Assembly (NCBI RefSeq): GCF_009931435.1
Contig: NZ_CP043414.1
Reading direction: 5' to 3' (one strand)
DNA length: 64,000 bases
Origin: Escherichia coli
Lineage (GTDB): Bacteria; Pseudomonadota; Gammaproteobacteria; Enterobacterales; Enterobacteriaceae
Shown here one piece after another: positions 16,331 through 48,618 of the stretch. The translations under genes and the position numbers were made by a program. Each line of letters opens with the position of its first letter. Positions within the stretch are counted from its first letter, which is position 1. The notes beneath the pieces were generated by a model. That model searched no databases. It saw only the letters and a program-made list of their open reading frames with translations, and was not told the origin of the DNA.

Positions 16331-17299
16331 TCATTGTTTGTTATCAGAAAGTGTTTTATACAGCGGCACATATCCCACGTCTTCCACAAGACTTTGCCCC
16401 TGAGGGCTTAAAAACCAGTCCACTAGTTTTTGTGTTTCCGGTGTCGGCTTTTCGCGGGTGACCATGTAGGCATCCACCACATACGGATAAGTACCGTTGC
16501 GGATATTCTCCACCGTTGGTGCAATACCATTTATTGCCAGCAGCTTAAGATTTGGGCTTATATCCTTATTCATCTGTGTGACATAATAGCGGAAGGTGTA
16601 ACCAATTGAAGGCTGCGTATTCCGGTAGGCAATTACTTTGGTTAACACTCCATTCATAAGGCTTACTTCTGTAGATGTTCTGGCGGGTAGCATCGGTGTC
16701 TCTTTCATCACCTTTGCCAGCATCACCGTCTGGCTACCGGAATCTTCCGGACGCTGCCAGACCTGAATGCGCTCATCACTGCCACCAACCTGACTCCAGC
16801 GGGTGATTTTACCGCTGAAGATATCCCGAACCTGCTGTTCAGTAAAAGAACTGACCGGATTACTGGCGTTAACGATAAAAACAAAGGCTTCGTGGGCGAA
16901 GGGGGTATAAACCAGTTTCACCCCGGCATCGGCAGCCCGTTGTTTTTGTCCTGCGGAAGGCTGGGCAACAAAAATAACATCGGCCTGGCGCTTTATGAGA
17001 TCATTATAGGCTTCTGGTGTACGAGTCGGATACATATAATTCAAACCCGGATCTTGATGGTTATCCCCGGGGATCAAATATCGGTAAGCTGAAGCATACA
17101 GTGGATATAACGCGGTTGCACCACATACCCGGGGCCATTTATTCGAGTTATCAGTGTAGCGTAAAGTGGGTTCTCCTCGTATATTGGTTTTCTCCCAACT
17201 CACTGTTTCTTTTACGCTGTTATCGCCCCCGCCGTCTACACATCCTGACATTAATACCGTCATATAAAATAATACTGGTAACAGGCCCACCCTACGCAT
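16331..17299 (-). CDS. PstS-like (phosphate-binding-protein fold) lipoprotein; start uncertain, ORF extends to 17365
   Basis: 344 aa ORF; probable start MRRVGLLPVLFYMTVLMSGC with lipobox; AT-rich; lies between the two Rhs modules. Confidence 0.6.
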   Translation of the reverse strand: MRRVGLLPVLFYMTVLMSGCVDGGGDNSVKETVSWEKTNIRGEPTLRYTDNSNKWPRVCGATALYPLYASAYRYLIPGDNHQDPGLNYMYPTRTPEAYNDLIKRQADVIFVAQPSAGQKQRAADAGVKLVYTPFAHEAFVFIVNASNPVSSFTEQQVRDIFSGKITRWSQVGGSDERIQVWQRPEDSGSQTVMLAKVMKETPMLPARTSTEVSLMNGVLTKVIAYRNTQPSIGYTFRYYVTQMNKDISPNLKLLAINGIAPTVENIRNGTYPYVVDAYMVTREKPTPETQKLVDWFLSPQGQSLVEDVGYVPLYKTLSDNKQ

Positions 17300-17627
17300 A
17301 CAATGATTTAATAAATACGCCATATACCTCACTCTAAAATATTGATTATATAAATACATATGCATAATTATATTTACATCAAATTCTGAATGAACAATTT
17401 AAATTTAGAGAAAGTGAAATTTAATTTTTCGATACTTCCGCATACATATTCCCCTCGCTAAAAAATCATCATTCCACAATCAATCATTAATTACAACTCA
17501 ATATACATCATTTAACTTTCATTAAACTCGCAATTTATTATTACATTGTAGCCATTATGAACTGTCATCACGCACACACTCTACATACACATTAGAAACA
17601 ATATAACCCCATGAGCCATCCTCCGTT

Positions 17628-18074
17628 TCAATACTTAGTGCAGCGTGTCTTAAGGAAATTAGAAGCCACAACATCAATCTTTTCTTTTAAGACTAAATCA
17701 TCCACATAATCACAAGACAAATAGAAGTCATTACCATCGGCCATTATAAATATCCTCATAGGTAAAGATTTATCATTATCAACATGAGCATTCGTAATAA
17801 TCCAATAATAAGGAAATCTAACATTTTTTGTAGGAATACCCAATAAATCATAAGCTTTATTATTATATTCTATCGCTCCCTTAACAAACGTTGGTTTGAC
17901 CTCCTTACCAATAATGCGATGCGACGTATATTCTTCCTTCTCAGCAAACGATTGCATTAATGCCCATATAGGTTTATTTGCCAGCTCACCGTGATGAAAA
18001 ATCCGATAAAAATACACTCCTAAAAAAAATATTAAGCCTAAGCAAACCAATACCATGAGGCAGTTCTTACTCAT
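17628..18074 (-). CDS. Putative Rhs immunity protein (RhsI) for the rhs-B C-terminal toxin; N-terminal membrane anchor
   Basis: 148 aa, AT-rich, overlaps the rhs-B stop by 4 nt; N-terminal hydrophobic helix [18 protein letters not shown]. Confidence 0.55.
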
Positions 18075-21000
18075 TGATTAAAATCCGTAAAATTAGAAGG
18101 AACAGGGCCATTCTCAGGTGAAAACAATGGAGATGTATTTGATACTCGTGATGCTATCATTTCTACAGTAGCAGGAAGATACATTGGCATTCCATTATCA
18201 CCACCTAGCGGATCAGTTGAAGTTAAAATTTCATTTATTGAATCTACTGAGACTCCCGCATGCAACATTGCCTCAATAACCATTGTTGCACAATTGTGCG
18301 TAAAATAGTTATAGTCACTTCTATCTACTTTATATTTTTCATCAATGTACTTAATCATTGCTTTCTCTTGTTCTGGCGTGGTTTTAATTGTATATATCCT
18401 CGTGCTTCTACGTTGTGCTTGTTCAGTTAAATAAGCTATGACACTCCCTCCACGTGGGGTAGCGGTTCCATAGCTATATACCCCTTTTCCAGTAAATGCC
18501 ATCGCAGAATGCCCTAATGGATTACCACTCGTGGGTCCCCCAGCAAAAATAAGGGTATCCAAACCAAGTGGATCTATATTTATAGTTGGATTCCACGGAT
18601 ATTTATAAAGATTCCATCCCCCCGCAAGCCCGATTGGATCCTGCGTGATATACCTCCCCTGCAACGGGTCATAGTACCGGTGACGGTTGTAGTACAGCCC
18701 CGACTCCTCATCATACTGCTGCCCTGGCAGACGGTACGGCTGTTGCAGGTGCTCCGGGTTTTCCTCTCCCAGCAGGTTTCCCCACTCGTCATACTCCCCG
18801 CGCCACGCCGTTTCCCCTTCCGGGCTGATAAGCGCCTGCGGCAGCCCACGGTGGTCACAGTGGTAAAGATGAAGTTTCCTCTCCGGGATGTATTCTTCCT
18901 CCATCTGGTTGTTCATCTGTTCCGCCGTCAGCCCGCACTGCGCAAGCCATGCTTCACTCTCCGCACTCACCGCACCCGCGCGCAGTTCCCGCTCCAGCCT
19001 CCCCAGCATCACCGACAGCTCCGCCGGGAGCGTCACACCCGTGTCCTCCTGCAACACCTCCGCCAGGCTACGGTGCCGCGCCTTCGCCTGTTCGCCATTC
19101 TCTGTTTCGATTCTCAGGAGCGGCGTGAAGCTTCCCGGCTGATAAATCGTCTGGATACGTGTGGTGCCGGTCTGTACCGTCGTCAGCCTGTCACCGTCCC
19201 ACCCGTACCATGTCTCCTCCGGTTTACGCGACAGCGACATCCATCCCGTCAGGTCACGCTCCCGCCGCCACACCCGTTTTCCCGTCCTGCGGCCCAGCGG
19301 GTCGTAAAGGTAGCGGCTCTCCACCTGCGGCTCGCCGTGCTGTATCCGCGTGTAGAACACCAGACGGTGCTGGCTGTCGTAATGGTAGTGGTGGGTGCGC
19401 TCGTCGTGCATCCGTATCACCCCTTCCGGGATACGGTCCGTCTTCTCCGCCAGCCTGCCGTATTCATCGTGGCGGTAGACATAGTGCGCATCTTCCGCGA
19501 TGCGGTTATCCGGCCACGCCGTGAAGGTGCTGTCCGGGTGCAGTTCCGGGTCCGGCAGCCGGTTTCCTGCCGGGTCCGTCGCATACGGGATATCAATGTC
19601 CAGGTTCGCTGCCGTGGTGTGGACGCCCGTCAGCCTTCCCGTGTCGCTGTAACGGTACTCCCGGCTCTCCTGCGGGCCGCTGATACGCACCAGTTGCCCG
19701 TTATCATTCCACGTATACTCACGGTCAAGCTGCGGAAGGTTCAGGTGCCTGCTCCGGAGCTGGCCTGTGAGGGTGTATGTGCTGGTCAGTTCATATGCGG
19801 CATTACTGCCTGCCATGCTGCCGAAGCTGCGCACCGTCTCACGGTGCAGCCTGTCCCGCGTGTACTCGACCAGCGGCGTTCCGCCCAGCTTCATCCCCGC
19901 AAGATAACCGCTGCCATACGTCAGCCACTCCACCGGCGGCAGACCGTCCGGCTCCTGACGGGTCGCCAGCCCCTGTTCGCTGTACGCGTGCCCCGTCTCA
20001 TGCTCCCACAGCATCTCCCCCGTCTCCGGGTTCTCCACCGTCTGCCGTTCGCCCGTCAGGCGGCCCTTATCGTCATAGCCGTAGTGGACCGCCACACGGT
20101 GGCCTTCACTGGTATGGCTGAGGGTGGTTAACCACCCGTGCTCATCATACTGCCACTGCTCTGCCGCTTCGCCGTTCACCGTCCGGTGCGTGATGCGGTC
20201 CGACGTATCGTAGTGCCAGAGGGTGATAAGCCCCTCGTCTTCACTGCGGACAAGCTGCCCTGCGGCGCTGTACCGGTAACGCTGTGTCCTGCCATCAAAG
20301 CCGCGCTGCTCCGTCAGGCGGTCCAGCACATCATAGGTAAACTCACTCCGGCTGCCGTTCTCGTTGGTCAGCACGGTGATGCGCCCGGCGGCGTCATACC
20401 CCATGCTGCGCGTCAGCCCGCCCTGCGTGGTGCTGACGGCCTTTCCCCACGCATCATACTGTGTCTCACTGCGGCTGCCGTCCGGGGCAATGATAGCGGT
20501 GAGGTCGCCTGCGGCGCTGTACTCATAACGGGTTTCACGCCCCTGCACATCCTTCTGACTGACCAGTTGACCACGCGGGTTATAACTGCTGTAAGTGCTG
20601 ATGCCTTCTTCCCGGTGAACCGCCGTCCTCTGCCCGTACCGGTCGTACTCATACCGTGTCGTGTACCCCGAGCAGTCCGTGAAGGCCAGCAGTTGACCGT
20701 AGCGGCTCCATGCCATCTGTTTTGTACTGCCCGTCGCATCCTGTATCCCTGTCGGCAGCTCACTCGCCGGGTCATCATAGCTGTACCGCGTCGTCTCACC
20801 GCTGCGTGAGGTCTCCGCCGCCAGCCTTCCCTTCTCGTCATACTCCCGGCTGCTGCGCAGCCCGTCCGGGTACGTCACTGACGTCACCTGCCGCTGGCTG
20901 TTGTAGCCATACCGCACCGTCCTGCCGTCCGGCCCCGTCACCGCCGTCACCGCGCCCGACGCCATATGTATCCGGTACTCCGTCCGCCGTCCCGCCGCAT

Positions 21001-22342
21001 CCGTCTGCGCCTTCAGCCTCCCCGCCTCATCATACCCGCTGCGGGTGATGCTCCCGTCCGCATGCTCCTTCTTCACCACACGCTTCAGGCCACCCTCGCC
21101 CTCCGTGTACAGCACCTCCCGCCTGTTCAGGCTGTCCGTGATGGTCACACGGTCCTGCCCGTACTCAAAGCGGTAGTCCAGTCCCTCCGGGTTGACCTGC
21201 TCCGTCACCCGCCCGGTATCATCATACCGGTAGCGGCTCTCCGGCCTCCCCGCATAATGGTGCGCCACCATCCGCCCGGCGTGCTCCGCATCATAAGTAA
21301 ACCCGCGCACCTGCGTCCCGCTGCGGTCATACACCGCCAGCAACTCACCGCTGGCCGTGTACGTGTAGCGCGCCAGCGGCGCAGTCGGCTGTTCATCCGG
21401 GTATGCCGGGTCGTGTGTCAGCCACACCGCCTCCAGACGGATACCGTTATCGGCACCGTATTCTGTACCGGCGGGCAGCGTGTCGGGGAAAACCTGAGAA
21501 GAGGAAACAGAACGGGGACCGGCAGGGGAAGATAAAGACGTGGCGCGCTGTTTACGGAAGGCTTCCGCCCGCTGCGCCTGCGTGCTCAGCAACAGGTGAA
21601 AACGACGGCCCGCACCGTCCGTCACCCCCGTCACCGCGCCCGCCACGTCACCCTCTGCCACCCGGTGGAAAGTCATCGTCCGACCAAAGCCATCCACCAC
21701 GCCCGTCAGTACCCGGTATGCGGGTGGCTCCGGCGGCAGCACCTCGTCCACTTCCGGCACCCGCTCCGGCCAGCCGAGCACCAGCCACTGCCCGGTTGTG
21801 CTGACAGCCATCATATAGGTGTGTGGACTCAGGCGGACCGCTTCCGGCAGCGCCCGCCAGAACCGCGCAAGCGGGTGTCCTTTATGCTGTTTCAGCACCC
21901 CGCCCCGCGCCAGCCAGAACGACTCGCTGCGGCTGTAGCTTATCTCGCCGGGAAACAGGGGTTCAAAGTGGATGCTCCGGCCACCGCTGTCGTTAAGTAT
22001 CAGTTCACGCTCACAAATCTGTAAGCGGATGTCGGAGGGGGCTTTCCAGCCGGGGCCGAATATCCCCACCGGGGCTGGCGTCTTCGTCCGGTAACTGCTG
22101 TAGGCGCGGAAAAGGATGAACGGCAACGGGCCGGATAGTGCCAGGTCGGTTTCAGCAGGCAGTACCTTCGCTCCCAGCAGCGGGTTTACCGGATTGCCAT
22201 ATTTCGGCGTGGCTTCCCCTGTGGGACACACCGAGCAGGCAACCCCCGTCGGCGCACCTATCAGCACCCCTGCTGAACCCTGCACAATATCCAGTCCCTT
22301 GCGGGTCATGTCACCCTGCCGCGCCGCCGGTTTTCCGCCCAT
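18071..22342 (-). CDS. Rhs-family polymorphic toxin (vgrG-proximal copy) with PAAR-like N-terminus and a C-terminal domain with a His...Cys pattern (possible permuted papain-like hydrolase)
   Basis: 1423 aa; same architecture as the other rhs; after DPIGL the tail contains GHSAMAF...YSYG...[12 protein letters not shown]. Confidence 0.9.
18628..22342 (-). repeat. Rhs core repeat, copy B (near-identical to 12502..16207)
   Basis: See copy A; N-terminal 250 codons are more diverged, the central and 3' core is almost identical. Confidence 0.85.
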
Positions 22343-22417: not shown

Positions 22418-24559
22418 TCAAAATTGCCGCATATCCGGCATTCCGGGGGGTAAATCTTTCGGCACAGGCGCATCCGGCACAGGTTGTGTGGCACCACAGT
22501 TCCAGTTAATCACCGGCGCATCACCGTTCACATCCGACTCCCCTTCCAGATGAATGTGCGTACCATTAAGAAATATGCTTCCGTCCTTCGTCAGCACCAG
22601 CCTTGCCTTACCACAGCAGAGTTCAAGATGCTCACCGGCAGAATAAACTGCTGTTTGTCCGGTGTTTTCCTTCATCGTCTTGCCCACCGAGAAGGTGACG
22701 TTATTCCCTACATTGACGCTGTAGCCCATTCCCACCATCAGTGATTTATGCAGCCCTACCTGTGAGGACTGCAACAACGCCACCGAGGTATTCATAATGC
22801 CGCCTACCGTCGTCTGGTAAGCCACGCCCACCGTCAGCGCACGAATGATCCCCACCTTTTCAACCTGGTTTGATCCCACTTTGATAATCTGGTTACTGCC
22901 CACCGTTTCCACCTGGTTGACACCAACCGTCTGTATCTGATTAACGCCAATGTTCTGGATCTGGTTATTGGTAACGGTGATCGCCTGGTTGTTACCTATT
23001 TTTTCGGCATGGTTGTTTATCACATCAGTGGTGCGGTTATTCAGCACCTCGGTGTTCATGTTCTTCTGCGCGTGGATGTAGACCTGTTCTTTCCCTGTCG
23101 CATCGTCAAACTTCAGTTCATTAAACCCGCTGCCCTTATAGGTTTTCGAACGAATGGTCATCTGCGTCTTTGTTCCCGGCAGGCTGCCGGGGGTGCGGTT
23201 TTCCTGGTGGTAGGTACGCCCCATAATAATCGGCTGGTCCGGATCGCCGTTGAGGAAGTCCACAATGACCTCCTGACCCACACGCGGTATCGCCAGGTTA
23301 CCAAACCCGGTGCCTGCCCACGCCTGTGCCACACGGATCCAGCATGAACTGTCCTGGTTTGACGGGTTATAACGGTCCCAGTTAAATTTCACCCGCACGC
23401 GGCCATGTTCATCACAGAAGATTTCTTCTCCTGCCGGTCCCGTCACGACGGCGCTCTGCGGGCCATCCACCAGCGGTTTCAGCAACGGCTGTGGCCGCCA
23501 TGTTCTGTCTGCCGGTATTACCGCAAAGTGGTTATTCAGCGTGGTACCTGAACCCCTGCGTCCCGGCACCGCCTGCGGCTGCTCGCCGTGCAGTTCACTT
23601 GCCACCACCTGCCATTCCCGGTTCAGGTTCGCCTGCGGATGCCCCGTCAGCGCAATTCGCCGTCCCGGCCATATCTCCGGAGAACGGCTTGTTCCGCGCG
23701 CCACTTCTGCGTTGTTTCGCCAGCCATCCATCTGCCAGCGGGCAAAGTTCTGCCCGTGGGCACCCTTGAAACGTCCGGGGTAGTCATACACTTCATACTG
23801 TGTGCGCTGGTAATCCTGGTACTGGCCTTCCTGATCAAAACGCCCTGCCCAGCCGGGTCGTTTAAAGGTGTAGTCCTTGGTCACCACGGAAGAAGGGCGG
23901 ATTTGTGCGCTGTAGCGGAACTGGCTGATGCATAGGGTGCTCACCTCGGTACGGGTGTTCGGATTCCAGGGGATCTCAAAGGACTCCGGCAGATAACGCA
24001 CGGTGTCGCACAGGACCAGGCTCTGGTCGGTACTTTTTTGCGCGTGCTCCTCATAAAAGAAGATGCCTTCCTCCGCCGCCATCCGGCACAGGAAATCGTA
24101 ATCGGTTTCGCCGTACTGGACACAAAACTCACGGGAAGGATGCGGCTCGCTGAACAGCGGACTCCACTCGGTCACCCCGTTTTCTTTCAGGATCGTCGCG
24201 AGTATGCTTTCGATGTCCTCATTCTGGAAGATACGGAAGTTCTGGCGCAGCCCTGTGCGCCACAGCGGTGGGCATACCTTCATGCTGTACAGCATCTGGT
24301 TTTTGTCGTTCTCCCCCAGTTCAAACCAGGTCACCACACCTTTCACCCGGCGCTGTACGTCATCGCCCTGCCATATCGTCAGGTAGGCCATTTTGTCCAG
24401 CACCTGCGCAAATTCAAGGGAGAGAAACTGCTGGCTGACCAGAGAGAGATCGAGGGAAAAGAGCGAAGAGAGTGACTGGTTCAGATGAAAGGAGACCACC
24501 GCAAACGCGTCCGGTGGCAGGCCGTCCACTTCCAGCGTGAAACGTAATCCGGTTGACAT
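22418..24559 (-). CDS. vgrG: T6SS spike protein VgrG (TssI)
   Basis: 713 aa; gp27/gp5-like VgrG body with a short Pro-rich C-terminal tail; 75 nt upstream of rhs-B. Confidence 0.95.
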   Translation of the reverse strand: MSTGLRFTLEVDGLPPDAFAVVSFHLNQSLSSLFSLDLSLVSQQFLSLEFAQVLDKMAYLTIWQGDDVQRRVKGVVTWFELGENDKNQMLYSMKVCPPLWRTGLRQNFRIFQNEDIESILATILKENGVTEWSPLFSEPHPSREFCVQYGETDYDFLCRMAAEEGIFFYEEHAQKSTDQSLVLCDTVRYLPESFEIPWNPNTRTEVSTLCISQFRYSAQIRPSSVVTKDYTFKRPGWAGRFDQEGQYQDYQRTQYEVYDYPGRFKGAHGQNFARWQMDGWRNNAEVARGTSRSPEIWPGRRIALTGHPQANLNREWQVVASELHGEQPQAVPGRRGSGTTLNNHFAVIPADRTWRPQPLLKPLVDGPQSAVVTGPAGEEIFCDEHGRVRVKFNWDRYNPSNQDSSCWIRVAQAWAGTGFGNLAIPRVGQEVIVDFLNGDPDQPIIMGRTYHQENRTPGSLPGTKTQMTIRSKTYKGSGFNELKFDDATGKEQVYIHAQKNMNTEVLNNRTTDVINNHAEKIGNNQAITVTNNQIQNIGVNQIQTVGVNQVETVGSNQIIKVGSNQVEKVGIIRALTVGVAYQTTVGGIMNTSVALLQSSQVGLHKSLMVGMGYSVNVGNNVTFSVGKTMKENTGQTAVYSAGEHLELCCGKARLVLTKDGSIFLNGTHIHLEGESDVNGDAPVINWNCGATQPVPDAPVPKDLPPGMPDMRQF

Positions 24560-24768: not shown

Positions 24769-25287
24769 TTATGCTTCCAGCGGTGCGCGCCAGTCGTCGG
24801 CACCGGAGGTGCCAGATTTGACGTGTTCCCACTCAATCTTGCGGTAGGCCAGTGAAACTTCGAGCAACTGGGTGAACTCGCGTTTCGCCGGGTCCTGGCA
24901 ATGCGGCATATGCAGTTTCATATCGACAATCGTCGAATCAGTCAGGCGGGTGGTGAAATAATGCTCCTGTTTGCCTTCCACAGATGTACGCCACCAGTGC
25001 AGTTCAGTGGTTGGCAGCATTTCACCGGAGGCCAGTGCGTTGTACATCAGCGGAACCGCTTTGTTCAGCGCCACGGTAAAAATGAACGGCTTGTGAGCAC
25101 GCTGACCCGCAGGCTGACCGGACTGAGGATCGGTCGGGACAGTAACGTTATGCAGGAATTCCTGCACCAGCATCTCGTCTTCGTGCCCCTGCACATAGAT
25201 GTTGCCGACAGAATCAGCGGTAAATGCACCTGCAGTAATATTTCCCTGGGTCTGACCAGTGATGGAGATATAACACGGTGTTGGCAT
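24769..25287 (-). CDS. hcp: T6SS tube protein Hcp (TssD), copy 1
   Basis: 172 aa Hcp-family protein; divergently arranged from tssB. Confidence 0.9.
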   Translation of the reverse strand: MPTPCYISITGQTQGNITAGAFTADSVGNIYVQGHEDEMLVQEFLHNVTVPTDPQSGQPAGQRAHKPFIFTVALNKAVPLMYNALASGEMLPTTELHWWRTSVEGKQEHYFTTRLTDSTIVDMKLHMPHCQDPAKREFTQLLEVSLAYRKIEWEHVKSGTSGADDWRAPLEA

Positions 25288-39026: not shown

Positions 39027-40442
39027 ATGGCAATGGACTTACGCGATCCGAATGTCTGGATATCGCACCTGCTGGAAAACCTGCCGGAAGAGAAACTGGC
39101 ATCGGCGCTGAAAGATGACAACCCGGACTGGGAGTATATCGACGGCGAAATCGTCAAACTGGGTTCACTGGCCCACAGCCAACTGGATATCCCGGAACTC
39201 CAGCGCCGGGGGCTGGTCATTCTGGCTTCGGAGAGTAAGGATTTTCGTCTGCTGGCACACCTGCTCAGAACCCTGCAACATGCCGGTGATCCACTGCTGG
39301 CACTGCGCCTGCTGGCGCTATACGTGGAACATTACTGGACTGTGGCCGCGCCGCAGAATATGGCGCATAAAAAACGCTTTGCCAGCCAGATCATTAAACG
39401 TTTTGAAACGGGTATTGAAGGCTTTTCACAGAACGCCGCCACCGCGCAGCGCGATGCACTATTAGGTGAACTGGCGAAACTGGCGCAGTGCTGGCAGTCA
39501 CATAACGCCCCGGAACTGGCAGAGGCTACTGATGATCTTTTTGCCCTGTACCAGCGTGCGTTTAATCGTGCGGCACCGGCTCCTGCCCACACTCCGGCGG
39601 CCTCCGGTAGTTCACCACAGACCACCGCCACGTCTGAAAGCGGCGTGACGCAAACCAGTGCTCCGGCTCCACAGATCGCCATCGACAGTCACGACGACAA
39701 AGCCTGGCGCGACACGCTGTTAAAAGTGGCGGCCATTTTATGTGAACGCCAGCCGGACTCGCCGCAGGGCTATCGCCTGCGCCGCCATGCCCTGTGGCAA
39801 TCCATCACCAGTACGCCCCAGGCGGAAAGCGATGGACGCCCCCCACTGGCTGCGGTCTCCGCCGATATGGTGGCAGATTACCATGCTCAGCTCGGTAGTG
39901 CCGATATGGCGCTGTGGCAGCAGGTGGAAAAAAGCGTACTGCTGGCACCCTACTGGCTGGACGGTCACTGCATTTCTGCACAGACGGCGCACCGTCTTGG
40001 CTATACCGCCGTGGCCGATGCCATCCGCGATGAAGTCGTTTCCTTTCTTGGCCGTCTGCCCGCGCTCGCTGATCTTCTGTTTAACGACCACACACCGTTT
40101 GTTTCTGAAAAAACGAAGCAATGGCTTGCAACTCAGCCAGGTAACCAGGCCGCGCCAGTCATACAGGTGAGTAATGAAGATATTCAGGCTGCGCGGTTGT
40201 GTTTTGATGAACAGGGGCTGGAAGCCGCCTTACGGTATCTGGATACGTTGCCCGCCGGTGAACCCCGCGACCAGTTTCACCGGCAGTATTTTGGCGCGCA
40301 GCTTATGGAAGAGGCGGGGCTGGTACAGCTTGCGCAGCAGCAGTACCGGATGTTGTTCAGGATGGGATTGCAGATGATGGTGGCAGACTGGGAGCCGTCC
40401 CTGCTTGAGCAGCTAGAACAAAAATTCACGGCAGAACAATAA
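39027..40442 (+). CDS. tssA: T6SS protein TssA (ImpA N-terminal domain; VasJ-like)
   Basis: ORF 38982..40442 trimmed to the ATG at 39027 (MAMDLRDPNVWISHL...); ImpA_N-type N-terminus. Confidence 0.85.
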   Translation: MAMDLRDPNVWISHLLENLPEEKLASALKDDNPDWEYIDGEIVKLGSLAHSQLDIPELQRRGLVILASESKDFRLLAHLLRTLQHAGDPLLALRLLALYVEHYWTVAAPQNMAHKKRFASQIIKRFETGIEGFSQNAATAQRDALLGELAKLAQCWQSHNAPELAEATDDLFALYQRAFNRAAPAPAHTPAASGSSPQTTATSESGVTQTSAPAPQIAIDSHDDKAWRDTLLKVAAILCERQPDSPQGYRLRRHALWQSITSTPQAESDGRPPLAAVSADMVADYHAQLGSADMALWQQVEKSVLLAPYWLDGHCISAQTAHRLGYTAVADAIRDEVVSFLGRLPALADLLFNDHTPFVSEKTKQWLATQPGNQAAPVIQVSNEDIQAARLCFDEQGLEAALRYLDTLPAGEPRDQFHRQYFGAQLMEEAGLVQLAQQQYRMLFRMGLQMMVADWEPSLLEQLEQKFTAEQ

Positions 40443-40460: not shown

Positions 40461-43400
40461 GTGTTCAGATTACCAACACCCCGACTATTCAGCGGACTCA
40501 AATCAGCCCTGCGCCCGGCGATGCCCCGGTTTAAAGTTTCTGCATTCTGGCTGCTGATACTGGCGTGGATTTTCCTGCTGGTATGGATCTGGTGGAAAGG
40601 CCCGGCATGGACGCTGGATGAAGAGCAGTGGCTCAAACCACTGGCGAACCGCTGGCTGGCAACGGCGGCGTGGGGGATTATTGCCCTGGTGTGGCTTACC
40701 GTCCGGGTAATGAAGCGCCTGCAACAGCTTGAAAAAATGCAAAAGCAACAGCGCGAGGAAGCCGTTGATCCGCTCAGTGTGGAACTGAACGCCCAGCAGC
40801 GTTACCTCGACCGCTGGCTGCTGCGCCTGCAACGCCATCTCGACAACCGCCGTTTCCTGTGGCAGTTGCCGTGGTATATGGTCATCGGTCCTGTGGGCAG
40901 TGGCAAAACGACACTGCTGCGCGAGGGGTTTCCGTCAGACATTATTTATGCCCCGGAGGGCGCGCACGGCGCAGAACAACGCCTGTACCTCACGCCCCAT
41001 GTCGGTAAACAGGCGGTGATCTTTGATATCGACGGCACACTCTGCGCTCCCGCTGATGCGGATATCCTGCATCGCCGTCTGTGGGAACATGCCCTCGGCT
41101 GGCTGAAGGAAAAGCGCGCGCGCCAGCCGCTGAACGGGATTATTCTGACACTCGATTTACCCGATCTGCTGACCGCAGACAAACGCCGCCGCGAGCATCT
41201 GTTACAGACGCTGCGCAGCCGCTTACAGGATATACGCCAGCATCTTCATTGCCAGTTACCGGTTTACGTGGTACTGACCCGGCTTGATTTATTGCAGGGT
41301 TTTGCCGCCCTGTTTCAGTCACTGAACAGACAGGATCGCGATGCGATTCTGGGTGTTACGTTCACCCGCCGTGCTCATGAAAATGATGACTGGCGAACAG
41401 AGTTGAATGCTTTCTGGCAGACATGGGCGGATCGAATGAATCTGGCGTTGCCGGATCTGATGGTCACCCAGACTCACACCCGCGCGTCTTTATTTAGTTT
41501 TTCCCGCCAGATGCAGGGAAGCCGTGAACCGCTGATATCACTGCTGGAGGGTCTGCTTGACGGCGAAAATATGAACGTGATGCTGCGTGGTGTCTATCTC
41601 ACCTCTTCGCTTCAGCGTGGACAGATGGATGATATATTCACCCAGTCTGCTGCCCGCCAGTACCGACTGGGCAATAACCCACTGGCGTCCTGGCCTCTGG
41701 TGGACACCGCGCCTTATTTCACCCGCAGCCTGTTCCCGCAGGCATTACTCGCAGAGCCTAATCTGGCAACAGAGAGCCGCGCCTGGCTGATGCGTTCCCG
41801 TCGCCGCCTGACGGTTTTCTCTGCCACAGGCGGCGTGGCGGCACTGCTGCTCATCACCGGCTGGAATCACTATTACAACGGTAACTATCAGTCCGGCATC
41901 ACCGTGCTTAAGCAGGCCAAAGCCTTTATGGACGTGCCGCCTCCGCAGGGGGAAGATGACTTTGGTAACCTACAACTGCCGCTGCTGAACCCGGTACGCG
42001 ATGCCACACTGGCCTATGGCGACTGGGGTGACCGCAGCCGCCTGGCCGATATGGGACTGTACCAGGGGCGACGTATCGGGCCTTATGTGGAACAGACCTA
42101 TCTGCAACTGCTGGAGCAGCGTTACCTGCCCTCGCTGTTTAACGGGCTGGTCAAAGCGATGAACGCCGCACCGCCGGAGAGTGAGGAAAAACTCGCGGTG
42201 CTGCGCGTGATGCGAATGCTGGAGGACAAAAGCGGACGCAACAATGAGGTGGTGAAGCAGTATATGGCAAAACGCTGGAGCGAAAAGTTCCACGGACAGC
42301 GCGATATCCAGACACAACTGATGTCCCATCTTGACTACGCGCTGGCTCATACTGACTGGCATGCAGAGCGTCAGGCGGGCGACGGTGATGCCATCAGCCG
42401 CTGGACGCCATATGACAAGCCTGTTGCGACAGCACAGAAAGAACTGAGCAAACTGCCTGTCTACCAGCGGGTTTACCAGAGCCTGAAAACGCGGGCGCTG
42501 GGCGTTCTTCCTGCTGACCTCAATCTGCGTGACCAGGTAGGGCCAACCTTTGACCAGGTGTTTACATCTGCCGATGATAACAAACTGGTTGTTCCACAGT
42601 TTCTTACCCGTTACGGCCTGCAAAGCTATTTTGTAAAACAGCGCGATGAACTGGTTGAACTGACGGCGATGGATTCCTGGGTACTCAACCTCACCCGCAG
42701 CGTGAAATACAGTGACGCCGACCGCGCGGAAATTCAGCGCCAGTTGACCGAGCAGTATATCAGCGACTACACCGCCACCTGGCGGGCCGGGATGGACAAT
42801 CTCAATATCCGCAATTTTGAGTCCATTGGACAACTGACTGGCACTCTGGAGCAGGTTATCAGCGGCGACCAGCCTTTGCAGCGGGCGCTGACCGTGCTGC
42901 GTGACAACACACAGCCAGGCGTCTTTTCTGAAAAACTCTCTGCCAAAGAGCGGGATGAGGCCCTGGCAGAGCCGGATTACCAGTTACTCACCCGCCTCGG
43001 GCATGAATTCGCCCCGGAAAACAGTACCCTGACAGTACAGAAAGACAAAGAAAGCACGATGCAGGCCGTATACCAGCAGCTCACCGAGTTACACCGCTAC
43101 CTGCTGGCAATCCAGAACGCGCCTGTACCAGGGAGATCGGCGCTGAAAGCCGTGCAGTTAAGGCTTGATCAGAACTGCAGCGATCCAATATTCGCCACCC
43201 GCCAGATGGCAAAAACACTGCCTGCTCCGCTCAACCGCTGGGTAGGCAGGCTGGCTGACCAGGCCTGGCATGTGGTGATGGTGGAAGCCGTTCACTATAT
43301 GGAAGTGGACTGGCGCGACAGCGTGGTGAAACCGTTTAACGAGCAACTGGCAAATAACTATCCGTTTAATCCACGTTCTGCACAGGATGCCTCACTGGAT

Positions 43401-43985
43401 GCCTTCGAACGATTCTTTAAACCGGATGGCGTACTGGATACCTTCTACCAGCAGAACCTGAAACTGTTTATCGACAATGATCTGAGCCTGGAAGACGGCG
43501 ATAACAGCGTCATTATCCGCGAAGATATTATTGCGCAACTGGAAACCGCGCAGAAAATCCGTGACATCTTCTTCAGCAAACAGAACGGTCTGGGAACATC
43601 CTTTGCCGTGGAAACGGTATCGCTTTCCGGCAACAAACGCCGCAGCGTACTGAACCTTGACGGCCAGTTAGTCGATTACAGCCAGGGCCGTAACTATACC
43701 GCCCATCTGGTCTGGCCTAACAATATGCGCGAAGGCAACGAAAGCAAACTGACGCTGGTTGGTGCCAGCGGCGGCGCACCGCGCAGTATCAGCTTCAGCG
43801 GGCCGTGGGCGCAGTTCCGCCTGTTCGGGGCCGGACAACTGACCGGAGTACAGGATGGCAACTTTACCGTGCGCTTTAGCGTGGACGGTGGCGCGATGAC
43901 CTACCGTGTGCATACCGACACCGAGGATAACCCGTTCAGCGGTGGGTTGTTCAGCCAGTTTGGTCTGTCAGACACACTGTACTGA
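40461..43985 (+). CDS. tssM: T6SS membrane core protein TssM (IcmF)
   Basis: 1174 aa; GTG start with AGGAG upstream; N-terminal transmembrane helices, Walker A GPVGSGKTT, IcmF-like periplasmic domain. Confidence 0.95.
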   Translation: MFRLPTPRLFSGLKSALRPAMPRFKVSAFWLLILAWIFLLVWIWWKGPAWTLDEEQWLKPLANRWLATAAWGIIALVWLTVRVMKRLQQLEKMQKQQREEAVDPLSVELNAQQRYLDRWLLRLQRHLDNRRFLWQLPWYMVIGPVGSGKTTLLREGFPSDIIYAPEGAHGAEQRLYLTPHVGKQAVIFDIDGTLCAPADADILHRRLWEHALGWLKEKRARQPLNGIILTLDLPDLLTADKRRREHLLQTLRSRLQDIRQHLHCQLPVYVVLTRLDLLQGFAALFQSLNRQDRDAILGVTFTRRAHENDDWRTELNAFWQTWADRMNLALPDLMVTQTHTRASLFSFSRQMQGSREPLISLLEGLLDGENMNVMLRGVYLTSSLQRGQMDDIFTQSAARQYRLGNNPLASWPLVDTAPYFTRSLFPQALLAEPNLATESRAWLMRSRRRLTVFSATGGVAALLLITGWNHYYNGNYQSGITVLKQAKAFMDVPPPQGEDDFGNLQLPLLNPVRDATLAYGDWGDRSRLADMGLYQGRRIGPYVEQTYLQLLEQRYLPSLFNGLVKAMNAAPPESEEKLAVLRVMRMLEDKSGRNNEVVKQYMAKRWSEKFHGQRDIQTQLMSHLDYALAHTDWHAERQAGDGDAISRWTPYDKPVATAQKELSKLPVYQRVYQSLKTRALGVLPADLNLRDQVGPTFDQVFTSADDNKLVVPQFLTRYGLQSYFVKQRDELVELTAMDSWVLNLTRSVKYSDADRAEIQRQLTEQYISDYTATWRAGMDNLNIRNFESIGQLTGTLEQVISGDQPLQRALTVLRDNTQPGVFSEKLSAKERDEALAEPDYQLLTRLGHEFAPENSTLTVQKDKESTMQAVYQQLTELHRYLLAIQNAPVPGRSALKAVQLRLDQNCSDPIFATRQMAKTLPAPLNRWVGRLADQAWHVVMVEAVHYMEVDWRDSVVKPFNEQLANNYPFNPRSAQDASLDAFERFFKPDGVLDTFYQQNLKLFIDNDLSLEDGDNSVIIREDIIAQLETAQKIRDIFFSKQNGLGTSFAVETVSLSGNKRRSVLNLDGQLVDYSQGRNYTAHLVWPNNMREGNESKLTLVGASGGAPRSISFSGPWAQFRLFGAGQLTGVQDGNFTVRFSVDGGAMTYRVHTDTEDNPFSGGLFSQFGLSDTLY

Positions 43986-43995
43986 GGAGGCAGGG

Positions 43996-45348
43996 ATGAA
44001 TAGTAACGTACTGACACAAACTATCGTTACCGGCAGTGACCCGCGCGGGCTGCCGGAATTCAGCGCCATCCGCGAGGAAATAAACAAAGCCAGCCACCCG
44101 TCACAGCCTGAGCTGAACTGGAAACTGGTGGAGTCGCTGGCGCTGGCGATTTTTAAAGCTAACGGTGTGGATTTACACACCGCCACCTACTATACGCTTG
44201 CACGGACACGGACACAGGGACTGGCGGGCTTTTGCGAAGGTGCGGAACTGCTGGCGGCAATGGTAAGCCACGACTGGGATAAGTTCTGGCCGCAGGGCGG
44301 CCCGGCGCGTACTGAAATGCTGGACTGGTTTAACTCCCGAACCGGCAATATTCTGCGTCAGCAAATCTCCTTTGCGGAATCCGACCTACCACTGATCTAC
44401 CGCACGGAGCGGGCATTGCAGCTTATCTGCGACAAACTCCAGCAGGTAGAGCTGAAGCGCGTTCCGCGCGTGGAGAATCTGCTCTATTTTATGCAGAACA
44501 CGCGTAAACGGCTTGAACCCCAGCCGAAGAGTAACGCCGAGAACACCTCACAGACCACGGTCAGAACGCTGATTTATGCACCGGAAACAATGGCTTCCTC
44601 CACGCCAGAAGCAGTAGTGCCTCCCCTGCCCGACCTGCCCGAGATGAAAGTGGAAGTGCGCAGTCTGTCAGAAAATCCCCCACAGGCCAGTGTGATGAAG
44701 CAAGGCAGTACGGTAAGAGGGTTTATCGCAGGGATCGTCTGTTCAGTGGCTGTCGCCTCAGCATTGTGGTGGTGGCAGGTCTATCCGGTGCAGCAGCAAC
44801 TGTTACAGGTTAACGACACCGCGCAGGGCGCAGCAACGGTGTGGATGGCCTCACCTGAACTCGAAAACTATGAGCGCAGGTTGCAACAGCTTCTTGGCGT
44901 CTCCCCGGTACAACCGCTGGAAACCGGAATGCAGATGATGCGTGTTGCCGACAGTCGCTGGCCGGAAAGCCTGCAACAGCAACAGGCCTCGACACAATGG
45001 AATGAGGCACTCAAAACCCGCGCACAGAGTAGCCCGCAGTTGCGTGGCTGGTTGCAGACCCGCCAGGACTTACATGCTTTTGCAGATCTCGTGATGCAGC
45101 GCGAGAAAGAGGGACTAACCCTTTCCTATATCAAAAATGTCATCTGGCAGGCGGAGCGGGGACTGGGGCAGGAAACACCCCTGGAATCCCTGCTGACGCA
45201 GTACCAGGATGCCCGTGCACAGAAGCAGAATACAGATGCGCTGGAAAAACAAATTAATGAGCGACTCGAAGGCGTGTTAAGCCGCTGGCTGCTGCTGAAG
45301 AATAACGTCATGGCAGAGGCGGCAACCGGGACCACGACCGGAAAATAA
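43996..45348 (+). CDS. TssA-like ImpA_N-domain membrane protein (VasL-like accessory)
   Basis: ORF 43906..45348 trimmed to the ATG at 43996 (MNSNVLTQTIV...); ImpA_N-like N-terminus, central transmembrane helix FIAGIVCSVAVASALWWW, coiled-coil-like C-terminus. Confidence 0.65.
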   Translation: MNSNVLTQTIVTGSDPRGLPEFSAIREEINKASHPSQPELNWKLVESLALAIFKANGVDLHTATYYTLARTRTQGLAGFCEGAELLAAMVSHDWDKFWPQGGPARTEMLDWFNSRTGNILRQQISFAESDLPLIYRTERALQLICDKLQQVELKRVPRVENLLYFMQNTRKRLEPQPKSNAENTSQTTVRTLIYAPETMASSTPEAVVPPLPDLPEMKVEVRSLSENPPQASVMKQGSTVRGFIAGIVCSVAVASALWWWQVYPVQQQLLQVNDTAQGAATVWMASPELENYERRLQQLLGVSPVQPLETGMQMMRVADSRWPESLQQQQASTQWNEALKTRAQSSPQLRGWLQTRQDLHAFADLVMQREKEGLTLSYIKNVIWQAERGLGQETPLESLLTQYQDARAQKQNTDALEKQINERLEGVLSRWLLLKNNVMAEAATGTTTGK

Positions 45349-45371
45349 TTATTTAGTTAAAGGAGATTATC

Positions 45372-45854
45372 ATGGCAAATATGAGTTATTTATCTTTAAG
45401 TGGGGAGACACAAGGGCTGATTTCAGCGGGTTGCTCAACGCTTGACTCTGTCGGAAACAAAGCGCAGTTAGAGCATAAAGATCAGATCATGGTTTATGCG
45501 CTAATGCACTCCATCTCAAGAAGTCAGAATGTCAATCATCATGAACTGGTCATCACCAAGCCTGTTGATAAATCCTCACCGTTGCTGGCAAAAGCACTTA
45601 GTGACAATGAAAAAATGACAGCGTGTGAATTTATACTCTACCGAACCAGTAAAGAGGGCATTAACCAGCCTTACTATAAAATAAATCTGTCAAAAGCCAG
45701 GATATCAAGTATTGATTTTGTCACACCTCATGCTGTTCTGGAAAAAGAACTGGAGCCACAGGAGAGAATTGCCTTTATTTATGAAGATATTTCCTGGGAG
45801 CATACGTTAGCCAGGACGAATGCAATGAGTAAATGGCAGGATCGTGTACAGTAA
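45372..45854 (+). CDS. hcp: T6SS tube protein Hcp, copy 2 (divergent paralog)
   Basis: 160 aa Hcp-family protein; AT-rich; followed by candidate effector and immunity genes. Confidence 0.85.
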   Translation: MANMSYLSLSGETQGLISAGCSTLDSVGNKAQLEHKDQIMVYALMHSISRSQNVNHHELVITKPVDKSSPLLAKALSDNEKMTACEFILYRTSKEGINQPYYKINLSKARISSIDFVTPHAVLEKELEPQERIAFIYEDISWEHTLARTNAMSKWQDRVQ

Positions 45855-45896
45855 CATACTGCAATAACATAATAACTTACTATTACGGAGAGATAA

Positions 45897-46811
45897 ATGG
45901 CTGGTTTAAGGAATAATAACAACACACAGAATGCACAGTGGGCTGATTATGTGGGTGACATTCTTCGGGGGTCTCAGCCGATAAACCAGCTAGTACCTCA
46001 GCACCCTTATCTTAACGACATCCCACTCATTGATGAGTTAAGGCGTCAGAACACTCATCATGTTATTCTTTTGACATTTGATGTTGCAAAAAAAATACTC
46101 AACCCAATAACATCATTTGATTACATTCATTTTATCACTACACATCCTTCAGGTATAAAAGATACACTAGCCTGGTTAGTTAACGCGGGTAAATTAATGA
46201 CTGAGTTTGATGAAAATGGGAAAATTATATTTAACCTTAATACCTTAAAGTATACAAAAGCAAGTTACTTTGAAATACTTGGAGAGAAATATATAAAAAT
46301 CACAACATCCAGCCCCTGGCTTTTAGAAAAGCTCGGTAAATATATTTTCTCTTCACGAGCGCCTCAAGTTCTGGAGCTCGCTATTGGCTGGCGAGGAGCT
46401 TTATCTGAATCAATAAAAGGAGTTAAGTTCTGTATCTGGTTTTCAGTAGCCTGGAGAACCATAGAATTTATTATGAGTTCAGAGCGAGATCTGGTTAATT
46501 TTCTTGGTGATTTTTCAATGGATGTGGCCAAAGCAGTGATTGCAGGCGGTGTTGCAACCGCTATTGGAAGCCTGGCTTCTTTTGCCTGTCTTAGTTTTGG
46601 CCTTCCAGTAATTCTTGTAGGAGGAGCAATTTTACTTACAGGGATAGTGTGTACAGTTGTTTTAAATGAAATCGATGCTCAATACCATTTATCAGAAAAA
46701 TTAAAAGATGCAATTAGAGATGGACTAAAACAGCAACAGGAACTTGATAAATGGAAAAGGGAAAACATGACTCCATTTATGTATGTTCTTAACACCCCCC
46801 CCGTGATATGA
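45897..46811 (+). CDS. Candidate T6SS effector with C-terminal glycine-rich transmembrane hairpin (possible membrane-disrupting toxin)
   Basis: 304 aa, AT-rich; C-terminal AVIAGGVATAIGSLASFACLSFGLPVILVGGAILLTGIVCTVVL; directly downstream of hcp2 and upstream of a small polytopic membrane protein. Confidence 0.45.
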   Translation: MAGLRNNNNTQNAQWADYVGDILRGSQPINQLVPQHPYLNDIPLIDELRRQNTHHVILLTFDVAKKILNPITSFDYIHFITTHPSGIKDTLAWLVNAGKLMTEFDENGKIIFNLNTLKYTKASYFEILGEKYIKITTSSPWLLEKLGKYIFSSRAPQVLELAIGWRGALSESIKGVKFCIWFSVAWRTIEFIMSSERDLVNFLGDFSMDVAKAVIAGGVATAIGSLASFACLSFGLPVILVGGAILLTGIVCTVVLNEIDAQYHLSEKLKDAIRDGLKQQQELDKWKRENMTPFMYVLNTPPVI

Positions 46812-46820
46812 GGATTAACT

Positions 46821-47288
46821 ATGTGTTTACATGTTAAATTGAAAGAGTTTCTTTCGATGTTTTTTATAGCCATGTTATTTTTCCCTGCATTCAATGCTTC
46901 TTTGTTTTTTACCGGAATTAAACCTCTATACTCAATAATAAAAGGCTCCACGGAAATATTTTATGATTGGAGAATGTTGATTCTATTCTTCGGTTTCATA
47001 TCGTTTTCCTTGTTAAATATTCATGTAATTTTACTAACGATAATAAAATCATTCTTAATAAAAAAAACAAAGGTAATCAATTTCGCCACAAACATAACAA
47101 TACAGCTAACTCTTATATTTTTACTAATAGCTATCGTAATAGCACCTTTAATAGCTCCTTTTGTCACAGGATATGTCAATGCTAATTATCACCTCTGCGG
47201 TAATAACACGGGGATTTTCCCAGGAGCAATCTATATTAAAAATGGCATGGAATGTAATAATGATTATATTTCTCACAAGGAAGATTAA
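46821..47288 (+). CDS. Candidate immunity protein: small polytopic inner-membrane protein
   Basis: 155 aa with about four hydrophobic helices; AT-rich; 10 nt after the candidate effector. Confidence 0.4.
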   Translation: MCLHVKLKEFLSMFFIAMLFFPAFNASLFFTGIKPLYSIIKGSTEIFYDWRMLILFFGFISFSLLNIHVILLTIIKSFLIKKTKVINFATNITIQLTLIFLLIAIVIAPLIAPFVTGYVNANYHLCGNNTGIFPGAIYIKNGMECNNDYISHKED

Positions 47289-47429
47289 GCAGTTAAATAT
47301 TATAAAACAAACAGTTTTTAACTCCGGATTCCATGTCCTTTTTTGCACTGTCTTTGTCAGGAAAAAATTTCTTATGCAAAGAATTTTGTATTATTGCCGC
47401 CAGAAATCCCTGCCGGCAGATATAATTTA

Positions 47430-48215
47430 TTATTGATAGCGGTTAACCAAATCTTTTACCATCGCTTTATAGGTCTTTTGCTTAAGTTGCATGATTTGCT
47501 GCTCTGTCATATCAGTCGTACTGGCTTCATTCTTGCCGGGCAATGGTGGAAGCACTTTATATTCATAATTCATCGGCGACCAGGCAGCCCACTCACCTGT
47601 AGCTACATCCACCAGCGTGAATCGCACCAGATAGCGCAGTGAGATTGTGTTAGTCAGTTTTTCATTTTTATAATCGGACCATACTGTTGATTTCAGCGCA
47701 GAGTCATATTTTCCTGTCTGCAACGTATCATGGTAAACAATAATCGCTTTCTGATGCCCTTTCGCAGCCACAAAACGCAATGCCTGCATCCAGTTCATAT
47801 TTTCAGCACTGGCAACATCCTCGTTCTCATTTTTATCTTTATTTTTGTTACAAGTCAGAGGCTTTTGCCTGTCCGGGATACCAGAGAATGTGGAAACAGT
47901 ATAATATTTTCTCATCTCCTCCTGCATAATGGTTTCCGGTGCGCGACTGCCAGACTGGACAAGTATTACGGGAGAATTGAGAGGCACACGAAACTCATCT
48001 CCTTCAAGCGCAGCCTGAATATCCTCCTCGGATACAGCCAGAGTGGTTTCATTACCGAATAAATCTTTGTCTGTCAGTTGCGGGGGAATGTTTTTATTAA
48101 TATTACTTTGTGTAACCTGAGCTTTTTTCTTTTTTTCATCAATAGAAGATTGAGAGGCACATCCTGCAAGCAGCGAGAATAATACACATATGCAACAAAC
48201 CTTTTTTGAATTCAT
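47430..48215 (-). CDS. yafT: Lipoprotein YafT
   Basis: 261 aa; lipobox LLAGC; sits next to aspV as in K-12. Confidence 0.85.
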
Positions 48216-48480: not shown

Positions 48481-48514
48481 GCAAAAAAACCGCAAAATTA
48501 AAAATCTTGCGGTT
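48481..48514 (-). terminator. Rho-independent terminator downstream of aspV
   Basis: Minus strand reads ccgcaagatttttaattttgcgg followed by TTTTTTTGC. Confidence 0.5.
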
Positions 48515-48541
48515 CTCTGAACTCATTTTCATGAGTGAATT

Positions 48542-48618
48542 TGGCGGAACGGACGGGACTCGAACCCGCGACCCCCTGCGTGACAGGCAGGTATTCTAAC
48601 CGACTGAACTACCGCTCC
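48542..48618 (-). tRNA. aspV: tRNA-Asp (GUC)
   Basis: Reverse complement matches the 77 nt E. coli tRNA-Asp sequence. Confidence 0.97.

What the first reader, a model, noticed from the sequence alone, without database searches (positions are those of the whole stretch)
43996..45348. Second ImpA_N-domain protein with a central transmembrane helix
Besides canonical tssA (39027..40442) there is a 450 aa paralog downstream of tssM. It has an ImpA_N-like N-terminus, one predicted membrane helix and a Gln-rich coiled-coil-like C-terminus. Membrane-anchored TssA-like proteins are proposed to act as sheath-polymerisation stoppers or anchors. Its position before hcp2 and the effector suggests a role specific to that cargo.
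Basis: partly seen in the sequence, partly recalled or inferred. Interest (0 to 1): 0.45.

Follow-up and report, generated by a model that had tools for sequence, protein, structure and literature searches.

The report
TagA, the known T6SS sheath stopper
This gene is the E. coli copy of TagA (also called TsmA or VasL), a known membrane-bound accessory protein that stops and holds the type VI secretion sheath, so it is real but ordinary and shows no sign of serving the neighbouring cargo genes.

Summary
ORF 43996..45348 (+) encodes 450 aa and starts 10 nt after tssM, with a GAGGAGG ribosome-binding site overlapping the tssM stop codon. It has an ImpA_N domain (Pfam 3e-19), one central hydrophobic helix (about residues 242-262) and a Gln-rich helical C-terminus.

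The C-terminus is the VasL domain (PF12486, 4e-23). It models as a bundle of short helices, not a coiled coil.

The protein aligns end to end with the EAEC 042 ORF that I take to be TagA (28% identity, E 5e-49), including the hydrophobic segment. RefSeq already names it "VasL domain-containing protein", and 3500 of 5426 complete E. coli genomes carry it.

The window is the E. coli T6SS2 island at aspV. This gene is the penultimate gene of the main structural operon (tssB to hcp2A).

The stopper/anchor idea is supported by homology. The cargo-specific idea is not. The vasI-tssA-tssM-tagA block is kept in Moellerella and Hafnia, while the genes downstream differ. Within E. coli the cargo after hcp varies or is absent, yet tagA stays about 96-97% identical.

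Verdict: an already known kind of protein, of low interest. One small open point remains: flanking charges across the family fit an N-in/C-out helix, which the literature does not clearly settle.

The parts
43996..45348 (+). tagA (tsmA/vasL-type) gene, 450 aa: the ImpA_N + hydrophobic helix + VasL protein
   Evidence: ORF. Pfam domains. Full-length alignment to the EAEC 042 TagA ORF, 28% identity, E 5e-49. RefSeq 'VasL domain-containing protein' in 3500 of 5426 E. coli genomes. dN/dS 0.18-0.30.
43984..43990 (+). Shine-Dalgarno GAGGAGG, overlapping the tssM stop codon (43983-43985) and 5 nt before the ATG
   Evidence: Sequence read directly. Suggests translation coupled to tssM (inference).
44023..44520 (+). 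N-terminal all-helical domain (residues 10-175) containing ImpA_N (Pfam residues 12-113 = 44029..44334)
   Evidence: Pfam ImpA_N 3e-19. AF2 pLDDT 92-98. The only significant Foldseek PDB hit is the TssA N-terminal domain 6hs5, E 4.9e-4. PDB sequence hits are 6rju and 6hs5 only. Lowest dN/dS, 0.086.
44530..44709 (+). Low-confidence, Pro/Ser/Thr-rich linker (residues about 179-238)
   Evidence: AF2 pLDDT below 50 for residues 182-237. Composition.
44719..44781 (+). Single hydrophobic helix (residues about 242-262, GFIAGIVCSVAVASALWWWQV), the membrane anchor
   Evidence: KD peak 1.82. Part of a long helix 239-274 in the AF2 model. An equivalent segment at 50-55% of protein length scores KD >= 1.6 in 44 of 48 diverse homologues and is recognisable in 47 of 48. 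K+R enriched on its N-terminal flank in 41 of 49. Aligns with the hydrophobic segment of EAEC TagA.
44869..45297 (+). VasL domain (PF12486, residues 292-434); the helical C-terminal domain spans about residues 276-444
39027..40442 (+). tssA (long form, ImpA_N + VasJ), the expected TagA partner
   Evidence: TIGR03362 498 bits. Pfam T6SS_VasJ 1e-70 and ImpA_N 1.2e-5.
40461..43985 (+). tssM (longest ORF; RefSeq relatives start about 90 nt later), immediately upstream
   Evidence: TIGR03348 943 bits. Annotation in relatives.
45372..45854 (+). hcp (Hcp2A in the E. coli T6SS2 naming), last gene of the main structural operon
   Evidence: TIGR03344 205 bits. 28% identical to the divergent hcp at 24769..25287. 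Naming from PMC5874247. No terminator-like site on the + strand in 43500-48700.

Best explanation
The gene encodes the TagA/TsmA-type accessory protein of the E. coli T6SS2 apparatus at aspV.

Shown here: the domain architecture (ImpA_N domain, disordered linker, one hydrophobic helix, VasL helical domain); end-to-end homology to the EAEC 042 ORF that I assign as the experimentally studied TagA; and its place in the structural operon right after tssA and tssM.

Inferred from the studied EAEC and V. cholerae proteins: the hydrophobic helix holds the protein at the inner membrane. When the growing sheath, capped by the long TssA (39027..40442), reaches the far side of the cell, TagA binds the TssA cap. 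This stops polymerisation and clamps the distal end, so the sheath stays straight and extended until it fires. Loss of TagA should give over-long, bent or detached sheaths and reduced, but not abolished, killing. Excess TagA should block assembly. It would serve the whole machine, not one Hcp or effector.
For: - Pfam ImpA_N 3e-19 and VasL 4e-23.
- A single hydrophobic helix. It scores KD >= 1.6 in 44 of 48 diverse homologues and is recognisable in 47 of 48.
- 28% identity and E 5e-49 over the full length to the EAEC 042 TagA ORF, with the hydrophobic segments aligned.
- 25% identity and E 1e-39 over the full length to a Vibrio homologue.
- The AF2 N-terminal domain matches the TssA N-terminal structure 6hs5.
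- A complete T6SS gene set with a long TssA (ImpA_N + VasJ) in the same operon.
- The vasI-tssA-tssM-tagA order is conserved in Moellerella and Hafnia.
- Purifying selection.
- 872 clusters at 50% identity match at E <= 1e-3.
- Function of the class: PMC6745524, PMC7545191, PMC6450956, PMC7896307, PMC6730261.
Against: - Identity to the studied proteins is only 25-28%.
- In V. cholerae, TagA also inhibits initiation, and distal TssA-TagA contact is not strictly needed for termination (PMC7545191). The simple 'stopper' picture is therefore incomplete.
- Whether the hydrophobic segment spans the membrane or only associates with it is unresolved.
Confidence: 0.85

Rival explanations
1. Cargo-specific factor: the protein acts as an adaptor or assembly factor dedicated to Hcp2A and the effector encoded just downstream.
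For: It lies directly before hcp (45372) and a putative effector/immunity pair (45897..47288) with short gaps and no terminator. V. cholerae TagA was reported to bind Hcp and VgrG among many partners (PMC7545191).
Against: Cargo after hcp differs or is absent among E. coli strains, and TagA stays 96.5-96.7% identical in two strains with different cargo. In distant relatives the conserved neighbours are tssA and tssM upstream, and the downstream genes differ. Some homologues are orphans. There is no match to known adaptor families (DUF4123, DUF1795, DUF2169) in Pfam. The most constrained part is the ImpA_N domain, which is shared with TssA.
Confidence: 0.05
2. Mainly a negative regulator or antagonistic chaperone of assembly. 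TagA acts chiefly at the membrane complex and baseplate, competing with TssA to limit initiation, rather than as a distal-end clamp.
For: In V. cholerae, TagA overexpression blocks assembly, tagA deletion partly rescues sheath formation in a tssA mutant, and TagA binds TssM, TssL, TssE and TssF (PMC7545191 and PMC6745524). Here tagA appears translationally coupled to tssM.
Against: EAEC and V. cholerae imaging places TagA mostly at the distal end of extended sheaths, and mutants show over-long, bent sheaths. The two roles do not exclude each other.
Confidence: 0.3
3. True bitopic membrane protein with a periplasmic VasL domain. The helix spans the inner membrane N-in/C-out, so the VasL domain acts in the periplasm (for example sensing or binding envelope components) while ImpA_N acts in the cytoplasm.
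For: The hydrophobic core is about 21 residues within a 36-residue helix. K+R averages 2.96 in the 15 residues before it and 1.27 after it, with N>C in 41 of 49 family members and N<C in 1. Some papers describe these proteins as having a 'transmembrane region' (PMC6745524).
Against: Papers describe TagA as 'peripherally associated' or 'membrane-associated' (PMC7545191, PMC6450956). From my memory, the original EAEC study called it cytosolic and tightly membrane-associated. C-terminal fragments of V. cholerae TagA and cytoplasmic TssA were reported to interact. Basic residues next to a hydrophobic anchor are also expected for monotopic anchors.
Confidence: 0.2
4. Decaying remnant with no current function, since T6SS2 clusters are often degenerate in E. 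coli.
For: In the closest strain, tssM is frameshifted and tagH truncated. In O157:H7, tssA and tssM are frameshifted (PMC12981562).
Against: In this window all core genes are intact. tagA is intact, has a strong ribosome-binding site, and shows dN/dS of 0.18-0.30.
Confidence: 0.03

Closest known systems
TagA of enteroaggregative E. coli Sci-1 T6SS (EC042_4550 by my recollection of the locus tag; Santin et al. 2018 as cited in PMC6745524 and PMC6730261)
   Same: Same three-part architecture and nearly the same length (450 vs 455 aa). Full-length alignment at 28% identity, E 5e-49, with aligned hydrophobic segments. Both accompany a long ImpA_N+VasJ TssA.
   Different: Different T6SS lineage and gene position. 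Here tagA directly follows tssM at the end of the main operon. In EAEC 042 it lies several kb beyond the last core gene, after unrelated genes. Only 28% identical. This orthologue has not been tested experimentally as far as I found.
TagA/VasL (VCA0121) of Vibrio cholerae, class B / TsmA (PMC6745524, PMC7545191)
   Same: Same place in the gene order (vasI, vasJ/tssA, vasK/tssM, vasL/tagA; the V. cholerae order is from my own knowledge). ImpA_N followed by a hydrophobic region. A Vibrio sp. homologue aligns over the full length at 25% identity, E 1e-39.
   Different: I did not have the VCA0121 sequence itself. PMC7896307 lists the V. cholerae form ('TagAV') separately from E. coli-type TagA. 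V. cholerae TagA is reported as only 19.3% identical to EAEC TagA.
TssA long form (TsaC, class A), e.g. the window's own tssA at 39027..40442
   Same: Shares the N-terminal ImpA_N domain. The N-terminal model matches the TssA N-terminal structure 6hs5.
   Different: No VasJ C-terminal domain. TIGR03362 scores 84 bits against a cut-off of 230 and covers only residues 11-208. Has a hydrophobic helix and a VasL domain instead. Pairwise similarity is not significant.

Membership tests
TagA / TsmA (class B ImpA_N proteins) | N-terminal ImpA_N domain (PF06812) | tested here: met
   Pfam E 3e-19, residues 12-113. Foldseek hit to the TssA N-terminal domain 6hs5.
TagA / TsmA (class B ImpA_N proteins) | Central hydrophobic / transmembrane region | tested here: met
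   One segment, about residues 242-262, KD 1.82. An equivalent segment scores KD >= 1.6 in 44 of 48 diverse homologues and is recognisable in 47 of 48.
TagA / TsmA (class B ImpA_N proteins) | C-terminal VasL domain (PF12486), as in E. coli-type TagA | tested here: met
   Pfam E 4.1e-23, residues 292-434, model positions 1-146 of 147.
TagA / TsmA (class B ImpA_N proteins) | Sequence homology over the full length to an experimentally characterised TagA | tested here: met
   28% identity, E 5e-49, residues 12-438 vs 9-454 of the EAEC 042 ORF at L002:14071-15438. That this ORF is the studied EC042_4550 is my assignment from position, size and domains. The locus tag itself was not checked here.
TagA / TsmA (class B ImpA_N proteins) | Encoded with a T6SS that has a long TssA (ImpA_N + VasJ) | tested here: met
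   tssA at 39027..40442 has VasJ at 1e-70. The full core gene set is present. The co-occurrence rule is from PMC7896307.
TagA / TsmA (class B ImpA_N proteins) | Membrane localisation, binding to TssA, capture of the distal sheath end, and long or bent sheaths on deletion | not testable with these tools
   Needs fractionation, two-hybrid or pull-down assays, and live imaging.
TssA (TsaC, class A cap protein) | C-terminal VasJ oligomerisation domain; passes TIGR03362/TIGR03363 | tested here: not met
   No VasJ hit. TIGR03362 scores 84 bits against a cut-off of 230, and TIGR03363 scores 39 against 161.
T6SS effector adaptors/chaperones (DUF4123, DUF1795/Eag, DUF2169) | Match to one of the adaptor domain families | tested here: not met
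   The Pfam scan returns only ImpA_N, VasL and a chance-level EccD hit.

The most novel reading that the evidence does not exclude
The hydrophobic helix may be a real N-in/C-out transmembrane span across the whole TagA family. That would place the Gln-rich VasL helical domain in the periplasm. TagA would then link the cytoplasmic sheath end to something in the envelope, rather than being a cytoplasmic protein stuck to the membrane. The family-wide positive-inside bias allows this reading. Published wording ('peripherally associated', 'membrane-associated', 'transmembrane region') is inconsistent.
Probability: 0.2. Interest if true: 0.35.

Novelty: already known. Interest (0 to 1): 0.12.

Why it matters
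It matters little beyond correct annotation. Naming this gene tagA/tsmA, rather than 'VasL domain-containing protein' or 'second TssA', clarifies the gene set of the widespread E. coli T6SS2 island. It also predicts a long-lived, cell-spanning sheath for this system. It corrects the idea that the gene belongs to the downstream cargo module. The only point of wider interest is the unsettled membrane topology of the VasL domain, which is a question about the whole TagA family and not about this locus.

Tried and rejected
- **Direct comparison with the window's TssA.** BLASTP gave E = 1 and hhalign of the family profile against the single TssA sequence gave E = 0.046, probability 1%. The relationship shows only through the shared Pfam ImpA_N model, so 'paralog' is too strong a word.
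- **PDB sequence search.** It found only TssA N-terminal domains, 6rju and 6hs5. No TagA or VasL structure has been solved.
- **Coiled-coil reading of the C-terminus.** Rejected, because the models show about nine helices of 10-22 residues packed together.
- **The longer GTG start at 43906.** Rejected in favour of ATG 43996, which has the ribosome-binding site, avoids overlap with tssM and matches the RefSeq start.
- **Second VasL-domain protein of EAEC 042 (384 aa).** No significant pairwise similarity.
- **Original EAEC TagA paper (DOI 10.1038/s41564-018-0234-3).** It is not held in the library, so its findings are cited through later papers or marked as my memory.
- **Literature search for ykfM/yafT/yafU.** It gave nothing useful. 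PMC12928451 matched 'TagA' only through 'tagatose'.
- **The 304-aa downstream ORF.** No match in Pfam or NCBIfam.

Full report
**What is there**

The window is a stretch of Escherichia coli chromosome between ivy/yafV and the tRNA-Asp (aspV)/dnaQ locus. It carries a complete type VI secretion cluster.
- On the minus strand: hcp (24769..25287), vgrG (22418..24559) and two full-length Rhs genes.
- On the plus strand: tssB, tssC, tssE, tssF, tssG, tagH, tssJ, tssK, tssL, tssH, vasI, tssA, tssM, the gene in question, and a second hcp.

In the E. coli literature this is the T6SS2 cluster. Its main operon runs from vipA2 to hcp2A, and a divergent operon carries hcp2B-vgrG2 (PMC5874247; PMC6730261).

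**The gene itself**

The ORF at 43996..45348 (+) encodes 450 aa. Its ATG lies 10 nt after the tssM stop codon. A GAGGAGG ribosome-binding site at 43984-43990 overlaps that stop codon. RefSeq uses the same start. No terminator-like site lies on the plus strand between tssM and the end of the island.

**Domains**

- Pfam finds ImpA_N at residues 12-113 (E 3e-19) and VasL (PF12486) at residues 292-434 (E 4.1e-23).
- A hydrophobicity scan finds one hydrophobic stretch, core about residues 242-262, peak 1.82.
- An AlphaFold2 model built on 50 diverse family members gives four parts: a very confident all-helical N-terminal domain (residues 10-175, pLDDT 92-98); a disordered linker (182-237, pLDDT below 50); a long helix (239-274) that contains the hydrophobic core; and a confident helical C-terminal domain (276-444).
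- Modelled alone, the C-terminal domain has pLDDT 86 and pTM 0.70 and consists of about nine short helices.
- The only significant structural match of the whole model in the PDB is the N-terminal domain of a TssA, 6hs5.
- The C-terminus is Gln-rich (12.6%). This holds across the family: mean 12.2%, and higher than the N-terminal part in 50 of 50 sequences.

The 'coiled-coil-like' region is the VasL domain.

**Identity**

RefSeq already names the gene 'VasL domain-containing protein'. It is present in 3500 of 5426 complete E. coli genomes, mostly at 95-99% identity.

In E. coli 042, the strain in which TagA was studied, an intact 455-aa ORF lies just beyond the Sci-1 core genes (L002:14071..15438). 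I take this to be TagA from its position, size and domains. RefSeq splits it into three 'pseudogene' pieces.

The window protein aligns with that ORF from residue 12 to 438 at 28% identity, E 5e-49, and the two hydrophobic segments are in register. A Vibrio homologue aligns over the full length at 25% identity, E 1e-39.

An exhaustive search of 1.84 billion cluster representatives finds 872 related clusters at E <= 1e-3 and 144 at E <= 1e-30. Named members come from Escherichia, Salmonella, Citrobacter, Enterobacter, Hafnia, Moellerella, Providencia, Entomohabitans and Vibrio.

Among 48 full-length representatives at 25-77% identity, 47 show a recognisable hydrophobic segment at 50-55% of their length, and 44 reach KD >= 1.6. 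The architecture is therefore conserved even though the helix sequence is not.

The gene is under purifying selection: dN/dS is 0.18-0.30, and 0.086 in the N-terminal domain.

**What the class does (from the literature)**

Proteins with ImpA_N, a hydrophobic region and VasL are called TagA, renamed TsmA, and form class B of the ImpA_N proteins.
- In EAEC and V. cholerae they locate to the membrane and bind TssA.
- They appear at the distal end of fully extended sheaths, stop polymerisation and hold the sheath.
- Mutants make over-long, bent or detached sheaths and kill less well. Overproduction blocks assembly (PMC6745524, PMC6450956, PMC6730261).
- They accompany long TssA proteins in T6SS phylogenetic groups 1 and 2 (PMC7896307).
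- Work in V. cholerae adds an inhibitory role at initiation and many binding partners (PMC7545191).

The window's TssA is of the long type, ImpA_N plus VasJ. I therefore assign this gene as the TagA of E. coli T6SS2. Its function is inferred by homology, not shown.

**The cargo-specific idea**

This idea fails the synteny test.
- In Moellerella (L010) and Hafnia (L011), whose TagA proteins are about 33-35% identical to the window protein, the order vasI-tssA-tssM-tagA is kept. The next genes differ: hcp plus a TssF-like gene in one, and a PulS-like gene, vgrG, PAAR and DUF4123 in the other.
- Another homologue sits before vgrG with no tssM visible on its short contig. Another is an orphan among unrelated genes.
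- Within E. coli, tssM-tagA-hcp is constant but the slot after hcp varies. It holds a 304-aa ORF plus YkfM here and in strain 214-4, three unrelated small ORFs in O157:H7, and nothing in NGF1.
- TagA stays 96.5-96.7% identical in 214-4 and O157:H7 despite their different cargo. NGF1 carries a more diverged allele (77%).
- The protein matches no adaptor family.

**An open detail**

Across 49 family members, the 15 residues before the hydrophobic segment carry on average 2.96 Lys+Arg, against 1.27 in the 15 after it. The N-terminal flank is richer in 41 sequences and poorer in 1. By the positive-inside rule this fits an N-in/C-out span, which would put VasL in the periplasm.

Papers variously say 'transmembrane region', 'membrane-associated' and 'peripherally associated'. 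A reported interaction between the C-terminal parts of TagA and TssA argues for a cytoplasmic VasL domain. I could not settle this. It concerns the whole family, not this locus.

**Verdict**

This is a real, intact, conserved gene of a known and experimentally studied kind, and it is already annotated. The cargo-specific suggestion is not supported. Interest is low.

Noticed in passing
window 45897..47288 (+): After hcp2A lies a 304-aa ORF with no Pfam or NCBIfam match. It has a soluble N-terminal part and two hydrophobic helices at about residues 213-261. It is followed 9 nt later by a 155-aa YkfM-like protein with three hydrophobic helices. GC falls from 0.56 (tagA) to 0.41, 0.38 and 0.30. 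This looks like an uncharacterised Hcp-linked membrane-targeting effector with a membrane immunity protein. The slot holds different genes in O157:H7 and none in NGF1.
   Followed up: partly
window 11951..16207 (-) and 18071..22342 (-): Two tandem full-length Rhs core genes (NF041261, over 2500 bits each) lie downstream of vgrG2. Each is followed by a small ORF (11547..11951; 17628..18074). A PstS-like ORF (16331..17365, 128 bits, below cut-off) sits between them. High-GC cores alternate with low-GC tips.
   Followed up: no
L001 (E. coli 2020CK-00188) and L003 (O157:H7 ECP19-798): In the strain whose tagA is 99.9% identical to the window's, tagH is truncated by an Rhs fragment and tssM is frameshifted. 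In O157:H7 both tssA and tssM are frameshifted while tagA stays intact. This fits published T6SS2 degeneration in EHEC (PMC12981562).
   Followed up: partly
L003:5001..6410 (O157:H7 tagA): The O157:H7 TagA is 469 aa. Its last ~30 residues are unrelated to the window's last ~12, and the gene overlaps the start of hcp. The 3' end of tagA therefore marks the border of the variable region.
   Followed up: no
L002:14071..15438 (E. coli 042): The ORF I take to be the EAEC TagA studied experimentally is intact (455 aa). RefSeq nevertheless annotates it as three partial pseudogene pieces (ImpA_N, 'POTRA', VasL). This looks like an annotation artefact.
   Followed up: partly
window 47430..48215 (-) and 48542..48618 (-): A 261-aa predicted lipoprotein (signal peptide ending in LAGC) with no family match lies between the T6SS island and tRNA-Asp (aspV). 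It is conserved at this position in the compared E. coli strains. From my own memory, E. coli K-12 keeps yafT/ykfM here as remnants of the island.
   Followed up: no
[not shown]
   Followed up: partly
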